A stretch of DNA of 15,261 bases from a virus. Taxonomy: Duplodnaviria; Heunggongvirae; Uroviricota; Caudoviricetes. Shown here in pieces: positions 5,367-14,044 of the stretch; positions within the stretch are counted from its first letter, which is position 1; each line of letters opens with the position of its first letter. Position numbers and translations under genes: made by a program. The stretch spans positions 1 through 15,261 of the IMG/VR virus record IMGVR_UViG_2545824644_000012; one strand, 5' to 3'. The notes beneath the pieces are model-generated. The model worked only from the letters and a program-made list of their open reading frames with translations, ran no database searches and was not told where the DNA came from.

Positions 5367-5654
5367 TTAAAGATTAGCGGGGAATTGTCGACGGGCGTGA
5401 ACCACGTTTACAATTTCAATACCTGAAGTTGTCACCCGGTACAAAATTATGTAATTGGGGTGAGCCACAATCTCGCGCAAACCTGGCACTCTGTCGCTTG
5501 GCGGATATAAATACGGATGTTCGGATAACGGCAGGACGCAAGCTCTTAAGCGTTGCCATAAGCGTTCTGCCGCATCTATGTCGAAACGGGCAATATAACT
5601 AGTTATATCATCCAGATCGGTATCTGCGCTTTCAAGCCATAACACGGGTAACAT
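5367..5654 (-). CDS. parE2: ParE/RelE-family type II toxin (ParE2-like)
   Basis: 95-aa ORF starting directly after the antitoxin stop (TAA-ATG); RelE/ParE-like size and sequence; partner of a PaaA2-like antitoxin. Confidence 0.8.
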   Translation of the reverse strand: MLPVLWLESADTDLDDITSYIARFDIDAAERLWQRLRACVLPLSEHPYLYPPSDRVPGLREIVAHPNYIILYRVTTSGIEIVNVVHARRQFPANL

Positions 5655-5846
5655 TTACTGCTCTCTCCGTTCCTTGCGAATTTTGGCAAAGCGTTCTGCC
5701 ATTCTGCGCTCAACTTCATCATGTGGAATAGCAGGACGTGGATCAGCAAGGCTTGCGGCTACTTTTGCGCGTAACCATTCGTTATAACTGTTTTCTTGCT
5801 CAACGGTTTCAAATTCAGAAACCATTGGTGAAAGGGCTGTATTCAT
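5655..5846 (-). CDS. paaA2: PaaA2-like antitoxin (63 aa)
   Basis: Using the internal Met gives MNTALSPMVSEFETVEQENSYNEWLRAKVAASLADPRPAIPHDEVERRMAERFAKIRKERREQ, near-identical to the recalled E. coli O157 PaaA2. AGGAGG 6 nt upstream of this ATG; the longer track ORF (to 5909) would overlap the repressor gene. Confidence 0.85.
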   Translation of the reverse strand: MNTALSPMVSEFETVEQENSYNEWLRAKVAASLADPRPAIPHDEVERRMAERFAKIRKERREQ

Positions 5847-5875
5847 GACATACCTCCTCTTACAGGTGGTAGAGA

Positions 5876-6277
5876 TTACGCTCGGTGCCCCTTTTGGGCT
5901 GCGATCCACCGAGCAACAGTTTCTTCCATTGACTTTTTCTTATTTTTTATTTCCTGAAGCATTTTTTCTTGGTCTTCATCGGGAAATGCACTAAAAGCTT
6001 GGAGCAATTCACGTTGGCGAGGGCCAATTTTCATCGTGTCAGGAGTAAAAATTTGCTCTCCCTCTTCTGGAGGTAATAAAAACCAATGTAGTGGATGCCC
6101 TGTAACCTCGACCAACTTATCTAAGCTGGAGGCTTTAGGTGTGGCTTTTCCACTGACCCATTGCTGAACAGTTTGCTGTGTCACACCGACTCTACGAGCA
6201 AGTTCAGCTTGGCTCCATCCTGTTTCTTTGAGGAGCCTGCTAATTCTGTACATAGATACTTCTAGGGCCTTCATCAT
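5876..6277 (-). CDS. paaR2: HTH (XRE-family) repressor, DicA/PaaR2-like; probable prophage repressor
   Basis: 133-aa ORF with helix-turn-helix (SQAELARRVGVTQQTVQQW); divergent from a Cro-like gene across an operator-containing intergenic region; immediately upstream of the PaaA2/ParE2 pair on the same strand. No Shine-Dalgarno upstream, so possibly leaderless like lambda cI. Confidence 0.7.
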   Translation of the reverse strand: MMKALEVSMYRISRLLKETGWSQAELARRVGVTQQTVQQWVSGKATPKASSLDKLVEVTGHPLHWFLLPPEEGEQIFTPDTMKIGPRQRELLQAFSAFPDEDQEKMLQEIKNKKKSMEETVARWIAAQKGHRA

Positions 6278-6385: not shown

Positions 6386-6646
6386 ATGCTCAATAGCACC
6401 CGTGAAAAAATTAAGCAGAAATACACACAGGCTGAAATAGGACGCTATATGGGAGTAACCCAACAAACTGTTTGGCAATGGTTTAGCTTGGGTATTCCTC
6501 CCAAACAGGTAATCCCTTTATGCCAACTAATGCAGTGGGGGGTTACTCCTCACGAACTCCGACCTGATATTTATCCTAACCCAACAGACGGCTTGCCTGC
6601 TGAGTTTCAGACTAGCACACAGCCAGCGACGGGAGTTGATTCATGA
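6386..6646 (+). CDS. Cro-like HTH regulator (YdaS family)
   Basis: 86-aa ORF; GAGGAGGG Shine-Dalgarno; motif GVTQQTVWQW..GIPP...ELRPD typical of YdaS/Cro-like proteins; divergent from the repressor. Confidence 0.7.
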   Translation: MLNSTREKIKQKYTQAEIGRYMGVTQQTVWQWFSLGIPPKQVIPLCQLMQWGVTPHELRPDIYPNPTDGLPAEFQTSTQPATGVDS

Positions 6647-7068
6647 AAATCAAGCATGAGCACATCCGCATGGCGATGAATGCCTGGGCATATCCTGACG
6701 GTGAGAAAGTTCCCGCAGCTGAAATAGCCCGGACTTATTTCGAACTGGGGATGACGTTCCCGGAACTGTACGACGACACTCATCCTGAGGCCCTGGCTCG
6801 TAATACCCAGAAAATTTTCCGTTGGCTGGATAAAGACACCCATGATGCTGTTGAAAAAATTCAGGCTCTGTTACCGGCGATCGAAAAGGCGATGCCGCCT
6901 TTGCTGGTGGCCCGTATGCGCAGTCACAGTTCTGAGTACTACCGGGAGATTGTCGAACGGCGGGATCGGCTGGTGAAGGATGTCGACGATTTTGTTGCGT
7001 CAGCGGTCGTTTTGTATGACCAGATAAATCGCGGCGGCCCGGCAGGGAATGCTGTGGTGATGCACTAA
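6643..7068 (+). CDS. YdaT-family protein (CII-like regulator / putative toxin)
   Basis: 141-aa ORF beginning MKIKHEHI, as recalled for Rac YdaT; ATG overlaps the cro-like stop (ATGA), matching the ydaS-ydaT arrangement. Confidence 0.6.
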   Translation: MKIKHEHIRMAMNAWAYPDGEKVPAAEIARTYFELGMTFPELYDDTHPEALARNTQKIFRWLDKDTHDAVEKIQALLPAIEKAMPPLLVARMRSHSSEYYREIVERRDRLVKDVDDFVASAVVLYDQINRGGPAGNAVVMH

Positions 7069-10745: not shown

Positions 10746-11303
10746 ATGAGCACTATTACCAGAGAACGCGCGGAGATTAAATCATACATCACAGGCTTCC
10801 TGAGCGACTCGGCGCACGATAACAAGTCTTCAGACAGCCTGCTGGCTAATGTGTTTCGTATCGCGCTGGCATCACTGGAAGCAGAGCCGATAGCAATGGT
10901 AGTGCCTGATGAAATGGATTTGCTTACCTGCCATCTCGACGGTGTAACTAAAACATATGCTGATGGCTGGAACGTCTGCCGCGTCGCCATGCTTCAGGCC
11001 GGAAACTTTCGGGAAAATAAGAATTCGTCAACCAACAATTTTCGGGAAATCTCGGAAACGTCAACCAGATCTCCGATAACTCCGGATGGCTGGATAAGCT
11101 GTACTGAGCGAATGCCTGAAAAGAGCCAGAACGTGCTTATTTCGATGAATATCGATAGCGAGGCAGGGCCATTAATATATTCCGCACGCTATCTCGGAGG
11201 CACGTTCCGGCGCGGAGGTATAGCAGTTAGTCCGGGTAATGATCTTAGGCAAGCAACCCACTGGATGCCGCTACCAGAACCGCCGCAGGAGGTGAATCAA
11301 TGA
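10746..11303 (+). CDS. DUF551-like phage protein
   Basis: 185-aa ORF with AAGGA Shine-Dalgarno; C-terminal pattern W.S..ERMPE...HWMPLPEPP recalled as typical of DUF551 proteins. Confidence 0.6.
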   Translation: MSTITRERAEIKSYITGFLSDSAHDNKSSDSLLANVFRIALASLEAEPIAMVVPDEMDLLTCHLDGVTKTYADGWNVCRVAMLQAGNFRENKNSSTNNFREISETSTRSPITPDGWISCTERMPEKSQNVLISMNIDSEAGPLIYSARYLGGTFRRGGIAVSPGNDLRQATHWMPLPEPPQEVNQ

Positions 11304-11383
11304 CCTGGCCTGAAGCATTCACAACGGTAGGAATTGCGATGGCGGTGGCGCTGGTGGTGTATTCGATTTGCCGCTGGGGATAA
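11300..11383 (+). CDS. Small hydrophobic peptide (27 aa), putative membrane protein
   Basis: MTWPEAFTTVGIAMAVALVVYSICRWG; ATG overlaps the DUF551 stop (ATGA) with GGAGGTG 7 nt upstream; below the track length cutoff. Confidence 0.35.
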   Translation: MTWPEAFTTVGIAMAVALVVYSICRWG

Positions 11384-11390
11384 AAACGGT

Positions 11391-11418
11391 TTGCGGGAAA
11401 AGGATAGTTAAGTAGAAT
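11391..11418 (+). promoter_or_regulatory. Candidate hok mRNA promoter (-35 TTGCGG, 16-bp spacer, -10 TAGAAT)
   Basis: Hexamers at 11391-11396 and 11413-11418; the predicted transcript 5' end (about 11420) coincides with a sequence complementary to the region downstream of hok. Confidence 0.4.
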
Positions 11419-11593
11419 TGCAGCGGGTGCTTGAGGCTATCTGCCTCGGGCATGAACACCAACGGCAGATAGAGAAAAGCCCCAGTTAACATTACGCGTC
11501 CTGCAAGACGCTTAACATTAATCTGAGGCTCAATCCATGCTGAACACATGTAGGTTAGCCTCTTACGTGCCGAAAGGCAAGGAGAAGCAGGCT

Positions 11594-11749
11594 ATGAAGC
11601 AGCAAAAGGCGATGTTAATCGCCCTGATCGTCATCTGTTTAACCGTCATAGTGACGGCACTGGTAACGAGGAAAGACCTCTGCGAGGTGCGAATCCGAAC
11701 CGGTCAGACGGAGGTCGCTGTCTTCGTAGACTACGAATCTGAGAAGTAA
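11594..11749 (+). CDS. hok: Hok/Gef-family type I toxin (HokD/RelF-like)
   Basis: 51-aa ORF MKQQKAMLIALIVICLTVIVTALVTRKDLCEVRIRTGQTEVAVFVDYESEK with the Hok signature; AAGGAG upstream. The in-frame upstream ATG at 11537 (track ORF) would add a 19-aa extension. Confidence 0.85.
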   Translation: MKQQKAMLIALIVICLTVIVTALVTRKDLCEVRIRTGQTEVAVFVDYESEK

Positions 11750-11756
11750 GAGACCT

Positions 11757-11816
11757 GGCGGGGGAGTAATCTCCCGCCACCTCTGATGTGTCAGGCATCC
11801 TCAACGCACCCGCGCT
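11757..11816 (+). other. hok mRNA 3' element: hairpin plus fold-back sequence complementary to the mRNA 5' end
   Basis: Hairpin GGCGGGGGAG-taat-CTCCCGCC at 11757-11778; 11799-11816 CCTCAACGCACCCGCGCT is complementary (one bulge) to 11420-11436 GCAGCGGGTGCTTGAGG, about 380 nt upstream. Confidence 0.5.
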
Positions 11817-11868
11817 TTACCATACTGAAAATGCTGTTTGAATGTTCATCTCTGAAAGAGGACTATGA

Positions 11869-12213
11869 ATGAAAAAGGTATTGATTGCAGCACTTATTTC
11901 CGGTGTGTCTTTTGGCGCTTTTGCACAGCAGGGTGGTTTCCAGGGGCCAGAAGCAGAGCGTTCAACAGTAGCGCAGGCAAAAGAACTGAAGGATGATGCA
12001 TGGGTTATCCTTGAAGGGAGCATCGTTAAAAAAGTGGGTGATGAACGTTATGAGTTTCGTGACAATAGCGGGACAATTGTCACGGATATTGATGACAGCG
12101 TATGGGCCGGGCAGAATGTTTCTCCTAAAGACAAAGTAAGAATTGAGGGTGAAATTGATAAAGACCTGAGCAGTGTTGAAGTTGATGTAAAGGCACTGAA
12201 ATTATTAAAGTAA
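11869..12213 (+). CDS. YgiW/YdeI (BOF) family periplasmic OB-fold stress protein, with signal peptide
   Basis: 114-aa ORF; signal peptide MKKVLIAALISGVSFGAFA; AGAGGA Shine-Dalgarno; recognisable BOF-family sequence; followed by an intrinsic terminator, i.e. moron-like. Confidence 0.8.
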   Translation: MKKVLIAALISGVSFGAFAQQGGFQGPEAERSTVAQAKELKDDAWVILEGSIVKKVGDERYEFRDNSGTIVTDIDDSVWAGQNVSPKDKVRIEGEIDKDLSSVEVDVKALKLLK

Positions 12214-12231
12214 CCGCCCCTGCTTGTTAAG

Positions 12232-12258
12232 CCCGTCTTACTGACGGGTTTTCTGTTT
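12232..12258 (+). terminator. Rho-independent terminator
   Basis: CCCGTC-ttact-GACGGG stem-loop followed by TTTTCTGTTT, directly after the YgiW-like gene stop. Confidence 0.55.
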
Positions 12259-13658: not shown

Positions 13659-13670
13659 AAGAGGTGACTG

Positions 13671-14044
13671 ATGCTCATAGATTTGGTTTTACCTTACCCG
13701 CCGACGGTGAACACTTACTGGAGACGCCGTGGCAGCACATATTTTGTATCAAAAGCAGGGGAGCGTTATCGCCGGCAGTGGCGCTTATTGTTCGCCAGCA
13801 GCGACTGAAATTAAGCCTGTCCGGACGGCTGGCAATAAAAATTATTGCAGAGCCACCGGATAAGCGTCGTCGCGACCTGGACAATATTCTGAAAGCACCG
13901 CTGGATGCGCTGACGCATGCGGGAGTGCTTATTGATGACGAGCAGTTTGATGAAATCAATATTGTACGTGGTCAGCCAGTATCTGGTGGACGTCTGGGGG
14001 TGAAGATTTACCCCATAATGCTTGAAGGGCAGGTCAAAAAATGA
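13671..14044 (+). pseudogene. rusA: rusA Holliday-junction resolvase, apparently disrupted by a -1 frameshift
   Basis: From ATG 13671 (AAGAGG 6 nt upstream) the frame reads MLIDLVLPYPPTVNTYWRRRGSTYFVSKAGERYRR, matching the RusA N-terminus, then stops at 13806-13808. The RusA C-terminus (AVALIV...PDKRRRDLDN...) continues in the -1 frame to 14044. The shift maps to the G-run near 13774-13776. Confidence 0.65.

What the first reader, a model, noticed from the sequence alone, without database searches (positions are those of the whole stretch)
11391..11818. Complete hok-type type I toxin locus with long-range 5'-3' mRNA complementarity
A HokD/RelF-like 51-aa toxin is flanked by a candidate promoter and by a 3' segment (11799-11816) complementary to the predicted mRNA 5' end (11420-11436). 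This is the fold-back architecture that keeps full-length hok mRNA untranslated. An in-frame upstream ATG (11537) could act like mok. An antisense Sok-like RNA is expected on the minus strand around 11480-11580 but I could not place its promoter with confidence. Unlike Qin, the hok gene here is not linked to relBE.
Basis: partly seen in the sequence, partly recalled or inferred. Interest (0 to 1): 0.55.

Follow-up and report, generated by a model that had tools for sequence, protein, structure and literature searches.

The report
Known hokW/sokW prophage toxin-antitoxin locus
This is an intact copy of hokW-mokW-sokW, a small membrane-toxin gene silenced by its own mRNA folding and by an antisense RNA; it was already annotated in Shiga-toxin phage 933W and tested experimentally in phage Sp5, so the finding is correct but ordinary.

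Summary
Window 11420-11436 pairs with 11799-11816 (-28.8 kcal/mol). The 12 pairs 11425-11436 with 11799-11811 lie inside the likely transcript, and homologues conserve them with compensatory changes.

[quoted passage not shown] It is 99.2% identical over the mRNA to hokW-mokW-sokW of phages 933W and VT2-Sakai (Sp5). For Sp5, toxicity, the antisense RNA and its promoter have been shown experimentally (PMC8621323).

All family elements are present:
- a hok promoter with a family-conserved -10 box
- tac, its metastable partner, and ucb
- the mok ribosome-binding site and ATG 11537
- the Sok-target hairpin and dcb
- hok (51 aa, Pfam HOK_GEF)
- a 3' stem-loop and fbi

Its promoter is -35 TTGCCT (11580-11575) and -10 TAACCT (11557-11552).

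- The mRNA most likely starts at about 11425, not 11420.
- The prophage does carry a RelE/ParE-superfamily module (paaR2-paaA2-parE2, 5367-6277), 5.3 kb upstream on the other strand.

Novelty: already known. Interest: low.

The parts
11391..11418 (+). hok (hokW) promoter: -35 TTGCGG 11391-11396, 16-nt spacer, -10 TAGAAT 11413-11418; transcription start inferred at about 11425
   Evidence: Read from the sequence. A TAnnnT -10 box ends 6 nt before the GGG/GGC start in nearly all homologous loci, 3 of them shifted by one base. The consensus scan was too strict to list it.
11425..11436 (+). tac (translational activator element), the 5' end of the hok mRNA; it pairs alternately with fbi, the metastable partner or ucb
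   Evidence: Start of the Rfam RF01794 match. Pairs with 11799-11811 in the full-length fold. Covariation.
11444..11453 (+). partner of tac in the metastable 5' hairpin of the nascent transcript
   Evidence: MFE of the 51-nt and 176-nt 5' fragments. The helix is 91% paired in 61 loci, and 6 of 10 pairs show changes on both sides; 11428:11452 is CG 30 / UA 26.
11437..11472 (+). 5' hairpin (11437-11445 with 11464-11472) present in the full-length and open forms
   Evidence: RNAalifold recovers it independently. It is 97% paired, with AU 26 / UA 26 at one pair.
11477..11483 (+). ucb (anti-SD): pairs with the mok ribosome-binding site in the closed form and with tac in the open form
   Evidence: Full-length fold pairs 11478-11483 with 11525-11530. 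tac/ucb is 94% paired across 61 loci but almost invariant. The structure line of the Rfam alignment shows tac/ucb.
11475..11545 (-). SokW antisense RNA, 71 nt: a single-stranded 5' tail (GUUCAGCAUGGAUU) followed by a long hairpin ending GGGGCUUUU
   Evidence: Coordinates transferred from the sokW feature of 933W. Fold -30.0 kcal/mol, z = -5.0. Seen on Northern blot with a probe identical to window 11516-11545.
11552..11580 (-). sok promoter on the minus strand: -35 TTGCCT (11580 to 11575), 17-nt spacer, -10 TAACCT (11557 to 11552), start at 11545
   Evidence: Read from the sequence. The spacer is 17 nt in 61 of 61 loci, the -35 begins TTG in all, and the -10 fits TAnnnT in 52 of 61. In Sp5 the promoter-less construct was made with primer YO-421. 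By my alignment to the window it changes 11551, 11552, 11555 and 11557, and the construct lost protection.
11525..11562 (+). Sok-target hairpin of the open form: mok SD GAGG 11525-11528 pairs with dcb 11558-11562; the mok ATG lies in the stem and the loop is 11540-11546
   Evidence: Rfam structure. It forms when tac/ucb is enforced. The outer stem is 92% paired; the inner stem is 59% paired on the MAFFT alignment, with 7 of 8 pairs showing changes on both sides.
11537..11749 (+). mok (mokW) reading frame, 70 codons, in frame with hok
   Evidence: A start codon lies 56-60 nt upstream of the hok ATG in 61 of 61 loci (ATG in 60). Its frame varies: 0 in 35, +1 in 19, +2 in 7.
11594..11749 (+). hok (hokW), a 51-aa membrane toxin, with SD GGAG at 11581-11584
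   Evidence: Pfam HOK_GEF 81.1 bits. PHROG 251 'MokW-like host killing' 112.9 bits. Annotated 'Hok/Gef family protein' in a RefSeq record 100% identical over window 11300-11900. The Sp5 homologue is toxic.
11757..11778 (+). G+C-rich stem-loop just after the hok stop codon, inferred to protect the 3' end of the processed mRNA
   Evidence: Nine pairs in the folds. RNAalifold recovers it with compensatory changes. The protective role is shown for the equivalent R1 stem in PMC9841398.
11799..11818 (+). fbi (fold-back inhibitory element) 11799-11811, followed by GCGCUUU (U run 11816-11818), the likely 3' end of the full-length mRNA
   Evidence: The 3' end itself is inferred, not shown.

Best explanation
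This is an intact hokW-mokW-sokW type I toxin-antitoxin module carried by a lambdoid prophage.

Proposed mechanism (the steps are transferred from plasmid R1 unless marked as shown here):
1. A weak promoter (11391-11418) makes a roughly 394-nt hok mRNA starting near 11425.
2. While the mRNA is being made, its 5' end (tac) is held in a local metastable hairpin with 11444-11453.
3. Once the 3' end is transcribed, tac pairs with fbi (11799-11811). In this closed full-length form, ucb (11477-11483) covers the mok ribosome-binding site and the hok start is paired. The mRNA is therefore neither translated nor bound by Sok.
4. Slow 3' trimming back to the stem-loop at 11757-11778 removes fbi. tac then shifts to ucb, and the mok ribosome-binding site moves into the target hairpin 11525-11562.
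5. That open form is either bound by the 71-nt SokW RNA (11545 to 11475, minus strand) and destroyed, or, when the unstable SokW is gone, translated.
6. Ribosomes starting at the mok ATG 11537 open the way to hok translation. The 51-aa HokW inserts in the inner membrane and kills or lyses the cell.

In a prophage, the published effect is earlier lysis and about twofold more phage release after induction.
For: Shown here:
- Rfam RF01794 scores 113.5 bits against a gathering score of 59. Pfam HOK_GEF scores 81 bits.
- The mRNA region is 99.2% identical to VT2-Sakai/Sp5. Inside the mRNA it differs from 933W at only 3 positions: 11502, 11756 and 11757.
- Folds reproduce the closed form (tac/fbi, ucb on the mok SD, hok ATG paired) and the metastable hairpin.
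- The open form with tac/ucb costs only 2.5 kcal/mol more than the MFE of the truncated RNA.
- On 61 non-identical hok loci from at least 12 genera, the tac/fbi helix is 75.8% paired. With the 3' partner slid by 1-3 columns it is 31-55% paired.
- RNAalifold finds the long-range helix on its own.
- Position 11428 (U or C) covaries with both fbi 11808 (CG 30 / UA 26 / UG 3) and the metastable partner 11452 (CG 30 / UA 26). This is the coupled covariation described for the family.
- Cognate tac/fbi duplexes are more stable than cross-clade ones: -24.7 against -16.0 kcal/mol in the largest Photorhabdus tac group.
- The mok start position is conserved in 61 of 61 loci while its frame is not, and the sok promoter geometry is conserved.
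- SokW folds as a tail plus a terminator-like hairpin.

From the literature:
- PMC8621323 covers HokW toxicity, the SokW Northern blot, loss of protection in a sokW promoter mutant, inner-membrane localisation and the phage-release phenotype.
- PMC9841398 gives the R1 model of tac/fbi, ucb, dcb, the metastable hairpin and the protective 3' stem.
Against: - No transcript ends were measured for this window. The start at 11425 and the end at about 11818 are inferred.
- No canonical intrinsic terminator follows fbi. The first one on the + strand is at 12229-12251, after the next gene. The hok transcript may therefore extend further than in R1.
- For the truncated RNA, the thermodynamic MFE prefers the metastable hairpin over tac/ucb.
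- tac/ucb and ucb/SD are almost invariant, so covariation says nothing for or against them.
- The outer half of tac/fbi changes register between clades. On the MAFFT alignment it is only partly paired.
- In Sp5, 3' processing of hokW mRNA and the role of mokW have not been shown.
- The published phenotype comes from Sp5, where the module sits near attR. Here it sits in the nin region.
Confidence: 0.93

Rival explanations
1. The locus is a decayed, non-functional hok relic, like most chromosomal hok copies of E. coli K-12, which have lost their regulatory elements or been disrupted. It would then have no present activity.
For: Broken relatives exist in the fetched set:
- hok frames are disrupted in L046, L047 and L066.
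- The 3' regions of L019 and L062 are replaced so that fbi is lost.
- Qin-type hokD copies lack the leader altogether.
- RefSeq annotates only the 51-aa CDS here.
Against: - Every element is intact and in register: both promoters, tac, ucb, mok, the target hairpin, hok, the 3' stem and fbi.
- Inside the mRNA the window differs from 933W at only 3 positions, none of them in tac, ucb, the mok or hok starts, fbi or the sok promoter. The window is 99.2% identical to VT2-Sakai/Sp5 over the same region.
- The Sp5 locus is functional.
Confidence: 0.04
2. The module is regulated as described, but its biological role here is prophage maintenance by post-segregational killing, or exclusion of other phages, rather than help with lysis.
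For: - The 933W record annotates hokW/mokW as 'prophage maintenance', and PPompW phages annotate the gene as 'phage maintenance protein'.
- R1 hok/sok stabilises plasmids and reduces T4 plating, as cited in PMC8621323.
Against: - The only direct test on a near-identical locus found no growth effect of deletion in the lysogen. It did find faster growth arrest and about twofold more phage release after induction.
- Maintenance and exclusion were not tested there, so they are not excluded. The roles are not mutually exclusive.
Confidence: 0.3
3. The 5'-3' complementarity is a chance match between two G+C-rich segments, and silencing relies on Sok alone.
For: - An unanchored search of 160-nt flanks gives duplexes of similar energy in shuffled controls for many loci.
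Against: - When the search is anchored on tac, 0 of 100 shuffles match the window.
- The partner lies 44-68 nt after the stop codon in the loci where the anchored search recovered it, across genera.
- There is a compensatory U-A to C-G exchange, and slid controls fall to 31-55% paired.
- RNAalifold recovers the helix independently.
Confidence: 0.01

Closest known systems
hokW-mokW-sokW of Stx2 phages 933W and Sp5 (VT2-Sakai)
   Same: - It is essentially the same locus: 99.2% identity to VT2-Sakai over the 394-nt mRNA and 3 substitutions against 933W.
- It has the same flanking genes, DUF551 upstream and a YgiW/BOF-family gene downstream.
- Ten of the 13 Sp5 primer and probe sequences tested match the window exactly. 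The other three are a mutagenic primer, a mismatch over the 11756/11757 differences, and my trimming of YO-433.
   Different: - In 933W the module lies at the right prophage end next to attR. Here it lies between the replication genes and Q, in a prophage integrated beside ompW.
- The 27-codon ORF just upstream is 13% divergent from its 933W counterpart.
hok/mok/sok of plasmid R1 (and the F-plasmid copy)
   Same: - The order of elements and the alternative pairings are the same: tac/fbi, tac/metastable partner, tac/ucb, ucb/SD and SD/dcb.
- The Sok promoter has the same geometry.
- A G+C-rich 3' stem-loop follows the stop codon.
- fbi is followed directly by a short U run.
   Different: - The toxin is only 45% identical.
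- tac reads GGGUGC instead of GGCGC, with the matching change in fbi.
- mok is in frame with hok here and in the +1 frame in R1-type loci.
- The Sok hairpin region is longer: a 16-nt insertion against the Rfam model and about 20 nt more than R1/hokC-type loci in the alignment.
- The context is a prophage rather than a plasmid.
hokD (relF) of the Qin prophage, relB-relE-hokD
   Same: The toxin is about 90-92% identical.
   Different: Qin-type hokD follows relB and relE directly. It has no tac, mok, Sok target or Rfam leader match. The window's copy has the full regulatory set.
hokC (gef)/mokC/sokC of the E. coli chromosome
   Same: - The toxin is 80% identical.
- mok is in frame.
- It has the same tac sequence, GGGUGCUUGAGG.
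   Different: - The hokC-type leader is about 20 nt shorter, lacking the extended Sok hairpin.
- Its sok -10 region has a 1-nt deletion in the alignment.

Membership tests
[quoted passage not shown] | Small (about 50 aa) hydrophobic Hok/Gef toxin with an N-terminal transmembrane segment and the conserved Cys | tested here: met
   Pfam PF01848 scores 81.1 bits against a cut-off of 22, covering profile positions 1-42 of 42. PHROG 251 scores 112.9 bits.
[quoted passage not shown] | Structured hok mRNA leader with tac, ucb and the Sok-target hairpin | tested here: met
   Rfam RF01794 gives a full-length match (1-157 of 157) at 113.5 bits against a gathering score of 59. The helices are 92-97% paired in 61 loci, except the inner target stem at 59%.
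[quoted passage not shown] | Long-range tac/fbi pairing between the 5' and 3' ends of the mRNA, supported by covariation | tested here: met
   The window duplex is -28.8 kcal/mol, with 0 of 100 shuffles as good. The helix is 75.8% paired against 31-55% for slid controls, with a CG 30 / UA 26 exchange. RNAalifold recovers it.
[quoted passage not shown] | Metastable 5' hairpin in which tac pairs just downstream, coupled by covariation to tac/fbi | tested here: met
   It is the MFE of the nascent fragments. The helix is 91% paired, and tac position 11428 covaries with both partners.
[quoted passage not shown] | Overlapping mok reading frame whose ribosome-binding site is the regulated target | tested here: met
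   GAGG at 11525-11528 lies 8 nt before ATG 11537, giving 70 codons. The start position is conserved in 61 of 61 loci. That mok translation is needed for hok translation was not tested for hokW.
[quoted passage not shown] | Cis-encoded antisense Sok RNA with its own promoter, complementary to the mok translation-initiation region | tested here: met
   The promoter has a -35 box, a 17-nt spacer and a -10 box, conserved in geometry. The 71-nt RNA folds as a tail plus a hairpin followed by U4. The RNA and its promoter were shown experimentally for the near-identical Sp5 locus.
[quoted passage not shown] | Slow 3' processing converts an inert full-length mRNA into a translatable, Sok-binding truncated mRNA | not testable with these tools
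   The protective stem-loop 11757-11778 and fbi are in place. In Sp5, two shorter hokW RNAs were seen but not assigned.
[quoted passage not shown] | The toxin kills or arrests the cell, and Sok neutralises it | not testable with these tools
   This was shown for Sp5 hokW-sokW. By my translation, the primers used to clone hokW (YO-357, YO-369) and to tag its 3' end (YO-560) agree with the window's HokW over the N-terminal 7 and C-terminal 22 residues. The full Sp5 protein was not retrieved and compared here.
relBE-hokD (Qin-type) arrangement | hok directly downstream of relB-relE, without its own leader | tested here: not met
   The gene upstream of hok is a DUF551 gene. The window has the full leader, whereas Qin-type L010 has relB and relE upstream and no leader match.

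The most novel reading that the evidence does not exclude
The orientation of the module may be part of its trigger.

- In every lambdoid context examined, the hok sense strand runs the same way as the induced phage transcription that passes through it.
- In the window, and in PPompW_EH1992 and Evi, that transcription is the rightward replication/nin/Q operon. In PhiR12_3 it is the stretch just after Q. In 933W it would be the leftward pL-int transcript once excision joins attL to attR.
- After induction, antiterminated read-through would run head-on into the sok promoter and silence it. It would also make hok RNAs whose 5' end is not tac.
- This could explain the unexplained RecA-dependent disappearance of SokW and the appearance of HokW reported for Sp5.
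Probability: 0.2. Interest if true: 0.4.

Novelty: already known. Interest (0 to 1): 0.1.

Why it matters
It matters little as a discovery. The locus was annotated in 1999 and tested functionally in 2021, and the folding pathway of the family has been known since 1997. It is useful in three modest ways:
- A RefSeq record 100% identical over window 11300-11900 annotates only the 51-aa CDS. It omits mok, sok and the RNA elements, which this report maps to the base.
- The 61-locus alignment reconfirms the classic coupled covariations on a much wider set of genera.
- The position and orientation of the module in different prophages suggest a testable link between prophage induction and loss of the antitoxin.

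Tried and rejected
- **Consensus scans.** The promoter/terminator scans found nothing in 11250-11950. The thresholds are too strict for these promoters, so both were placed by family conservation and by the Sp5 mutagenesis instead.
- **Whole-flank RNAduplex.** Whole-flank and 20-nt-window RNAduplex searches were not discriminating. Shuffled 3' regions gave similar energies because long interior loops and G+C-rich hairpins are allowed. I replaced them with a tac-anchored search.
- **Failed runs.** One run timed out, and one used a faulty motif.
- **Paralogue alignment.** An alignment of eight Hok paralogues was too divergent for the locus search. A three-sequence alignment worked.
- **Missing terminator.** I considered that the lack of a terminator hairpin after fbi marks a defective or variant locus. 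I set this aside because R1/F-type loci also go straight from fbi into a short U run. By my own count on L063, fbi there ends about 398 nt from the start, which matches my recollection of the R1 full-length mRNA. The 3' end here remains unmeasured.
- **Cognate versus non-cognate test.** This test for tac/fbi is clear for clades with divergent outer halves. It is flat for the large GGGUGCUUGAGGC group (-19.3 against -19.2 kcal/mol).

Full report
**What is in the sequence**

Window 11391-11818 contains a 51-codon ORF (11594-11749) and an in-frame upstream ATG at 11537 that gives 70 codons. Both products match Pfam HOK_GEF at about 80 bits against a cut-off of 22. The 51-aa product also matches PHROG 251, 'MokW-like host killing', at 112.9 bits.

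The only Rfam family reaching its gathering score anywhere in the 15.3-kb window is RF01794 ('sok'). It gives a full-length match at 113.5 bits on the + strand, 11425-11599. Despite its name, that model describes the leader of the hok mRNA. Sok itself is the complement of its central part.

- RNAduplex pairs 11420-11437 with 11798-11816 at -28.8 kcal/mol, with C11805 bulged and A11422 unpaired.
- The MFE fold of 11420-11820 closes the 5' end on the 3' end, with z = -7.0 against 100 shuffles.
- With the 5' segment fixed, none of 100 shuffles of the 3' region gave as good a duplex.

**Where the window comes from**

Window 11300-11900 is 100% identical to E. coli chromosomes in which the element is a lambdoid prophage beside ompW. 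Related sequence occurs in 4731 of 5426 complete E. coli genomes.

Over those 601 nt it is 97.3% identical to phage 933W, whose record annotates mokW, hokW and a 'SokW antisense RNA'. Transferred to the window, those features are:
- mokW 11537-11749
- hokW 11594-11749
- sokW 11475-11545 on the minus strand

Over the mRNA proper (11425-11818) the identity to VT2-Sakai (Sp5) and many other Stx phages is 99.2%. Only 11502, 11756 and 11757 differ from 933W.

**Published experiments on the near-identical locus**

Takada et al. 2021 (PMC8621323) reported the following for Sp5:
- HokW arrests growth.
- sokW expressed from its own promoter protects, and a sokW -10 mutant does not.
- Both RNAs are seen on Northern blots.
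- Protection partly needs RNase III and Hfq.
- After mitomycin C, sokW RNA disappears and HokW appears in the inner membrane. HokW production depends on RecA.
- Deletion of the locus delays growth arrest and halves phage release.

Ten of the 13 primer and probe sequences I tested match the window exactly. These include the sokW probe (11516-11545) and the hokW probe (11553-11582). By my alignment to the window, their mutagenic primer alters 11551, 11552, 11555 and 11557. This places the sok -10 box at TAACCT, 11557 to 11552 on the minus strand.

- The -35 box is TTGCCT (11580 to 11575), followed by a 17-nt spacer and the -10 box TAACCT (11557 to 11552). The start is at 11545 and the end at about 11475.
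- In 61 homologous loci the spacer is 17 nt in all, the -35 begins TTG in all, and the -10 fits TAnnnT in 52.
- The 71-nt RNA folds into a 14-nt single-stranded 5' tail and a long hairpin ending GGGGCUUUU (-30.0 kcal/mol, z = -5.0).
- The tail is complementary to the loop and 5' arm of the hairpin that holds the mok start codon.

I fetched 80 hok loci from one-genome-per-species contigs. They come from Escherichia, Shigella, Kluyvera, Photorhabdus, Pantoea, Mixta, Sodalis, Citrobacter, Dryocola, Buttiauxella, Leclercia, Enterobacter and others, plus R1/F-type copies. I aligned 61 non-identical full-length mRNAs (A3).

| Structure tested | Result |
|---|---|
| tac/fbi helix taken from the window | 75.8% paired; 31-55% when the 3' partner is slid by 1-3 columns |
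| Pair 11428:11808 | C-G in 30, U-A in 26, U-G in 3 |
| Long-range helix by RNAalifold, given no structure | recovered, along with the 5' hairpin and the post-stop stem-loop, each with compensatory changes |
| Pair 11428:11452 (tac with its metastable partner) | C-G in 30, U-A in 26 |
| Position 11428 in tac/ucb | left unpaired |
| Pairs involving 11423-11424 | fail in 37 and 29 of 61 loci |

The double covariation of 11428, together with its being unpaired in tac/ucb, is the coupled covariation pattern published for the family. The reference is Gultyaev, Franch and Gerdes 1997, cited in PMC9841398.

The failure of the outermost pairs fits a transcription start at about 11425. A conserved -10 box ends 6 nt before that base in nearly all loci.

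The outer half of tac/fbi changes register between clades, so the fixed alignment undercounts it. Per-locus duplexes are significant in most loci. Cognate pairs beat cross-clade pairs where the sequences differ, for example -24.7 against -16.0 kcal/mol in the largest Photorhabdus tac group.

**Mechanism**

The R1 model is summarised in PMC9841398 and maps onto the window element by element.
- **Full-length RNA (11425-11818).** Its fold has tac/fbi, ucb 11478-11483 on the mok ribosome-binding site 11525-11530, and the hok start paired with 11556-11564.
- **5' fragments.** They fold tac onto 11444-11453, the metastable hairpin.
- **RNA truncated after the stem-loop 11757-11778.** It can adopt tac/ucb with the SD/dcb target hairpin at a cost of 2.5 kcal/mol over its MFE.
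- **mok.** A start codon lies 56-60 nt upstream of the hok ATG in 61 of 61 loci. Its frame relative to hok is 0 in 35, +1 in 19 (including R1-type) and +2 in 7. In the last group the ORF is only 19-20 codons long and ends at the hok start. This fits mok acting through its translation rather than through its product.

What is shown here is the presence, conservation and pairing potential of the elements. The transcript ends, 3' processing and translational coupling are inferred from R1 and have not been shown even for Sp5.

**Open point**

hokD-type relatives have a hairpin terminator (CCCGCTTCGGCGGGTTTT) right after fbi. The window, like 933W, goes from fbi into GCGCUUUACC, and the next gene starts at 11869. 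The first canonical + strand terminator is at 12229-12251. R1/F-type loci also pass from fbi straight into UUUAU, so this need not be a defect. Read-through into the YgiW/BOF-family gene is possible but untested.

**The relBE remark**

Qin-type hokD (L010) sits directly behind relB and relE and has no leader. However, the same prophage carries a three-gene type II module on the minus strand at 5367-6277:
- a toxin with E = 2e-58 to ParE2 of PDB 5CW7
- an antitoxin matching Pfam PaaA2
- an HTH regulator

It is divergent from ydaS/ydaT.

**A lead beyond the finding**

In the window, PPompW_EH1992, PhiR12_3 and Evi, hok points the same way as the rightward phage operon around it. In 933W it points the same way as pL-int transcription once attL and attR are joined.

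Induced, antiterminated read-through would then oppose the sok promoter. This could account for the unexplained loss of sokW RNA on induction. Most genes in these regions share that strand anyway, so five non-independent contexts are weak evidence. I give this reading a probability of about 0.2.

**Verdict**

The locus is already known and of low interest.

Noticed in passing
window 11300-11383 (+): An unannotated 27-codon hydrophobic ORF (MTWPEAFTTVGIAMAVALVVYSICRWG) starts by overlapping the stop codon of the DUF551 gene (ATGA). It is intact and the same length in 933W. Yet 11 of the 16 differences between the window and 933W in 11300-11900 fall inside it, which marks a mosaic junction just upstream of the hok promoter. 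It has no Pfam or PHROG match.
   Followed up: partly
window 5367-6277 (-): A three-gene type II toxin-antitoxin module of the paaR2-paaA2-parE2 kind. The toxin (5367-5654) matches ParE2 of PDB 5CW7 at E = 2e-58. The antitoxin matches Pfam PaaA2. An HTH regulator lies at 5876-6277. The module is divergent from ydaS/ydaT at 6386-7068, and RefSeq marks ydaS as frameshifted.
   Followed up: partly
window 11811-12251 (+): There is no canonical intrinsic terminator between fbi and the YgiW/BOF-family gene (11869-12213). The first one on this strand is at 12229-12251. hokD-type relatives have a terminator hairpin right after fbi. hok and the BOF gene may be co-transcribed.
   Followed up: partly
L006, L018, L026, L063, L064, L065 (whole loci): Contigs labelled Veillonella, Acinetobacter, Xanthomonas, Ferruginibacter, Streptomyces and Oscillibacter carry E. 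coli-type or R1-type hok loci at 91-100% protein identity to those types. They most likely reflect contamination of those assemblies by enterobacterial or plasmid DNA.
   Followed up: no
L035 856-1003 and 1485-1633: Photorhabdus temperata has two hok leaders about 630 nt apart on the same strand. Several Photorhabdus genomes carry many hok copies.
   Followed up: no
L002 12295-12450 (window 11594-11749): A RefSeq record 100% identical over window 11300-11900 annotates only the 51-aa Hok CDS. mok, sok and the RNA elements are absent from its annotation.
   Followed up: yes
window 13664-14044 (+): In the RefSeq chromosome (NZ_AP042495.1) that is identical to the window over 11300-11900, the RusA-family resolvase gene is marked frameshifted, as is ydaS. 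The prophage may therefore be partly decayed even though its hok module is intact.
   Followed up: no
L084 6001-6371 (PPompW_EH1992): Other prophages integrated at ompW carry, at the same map position, a hok locus annotated 'gef' that is only 85.5% identical to the window's. The hok allele at this position therefore varies between otherwise similar prophages.
   Followed up: no
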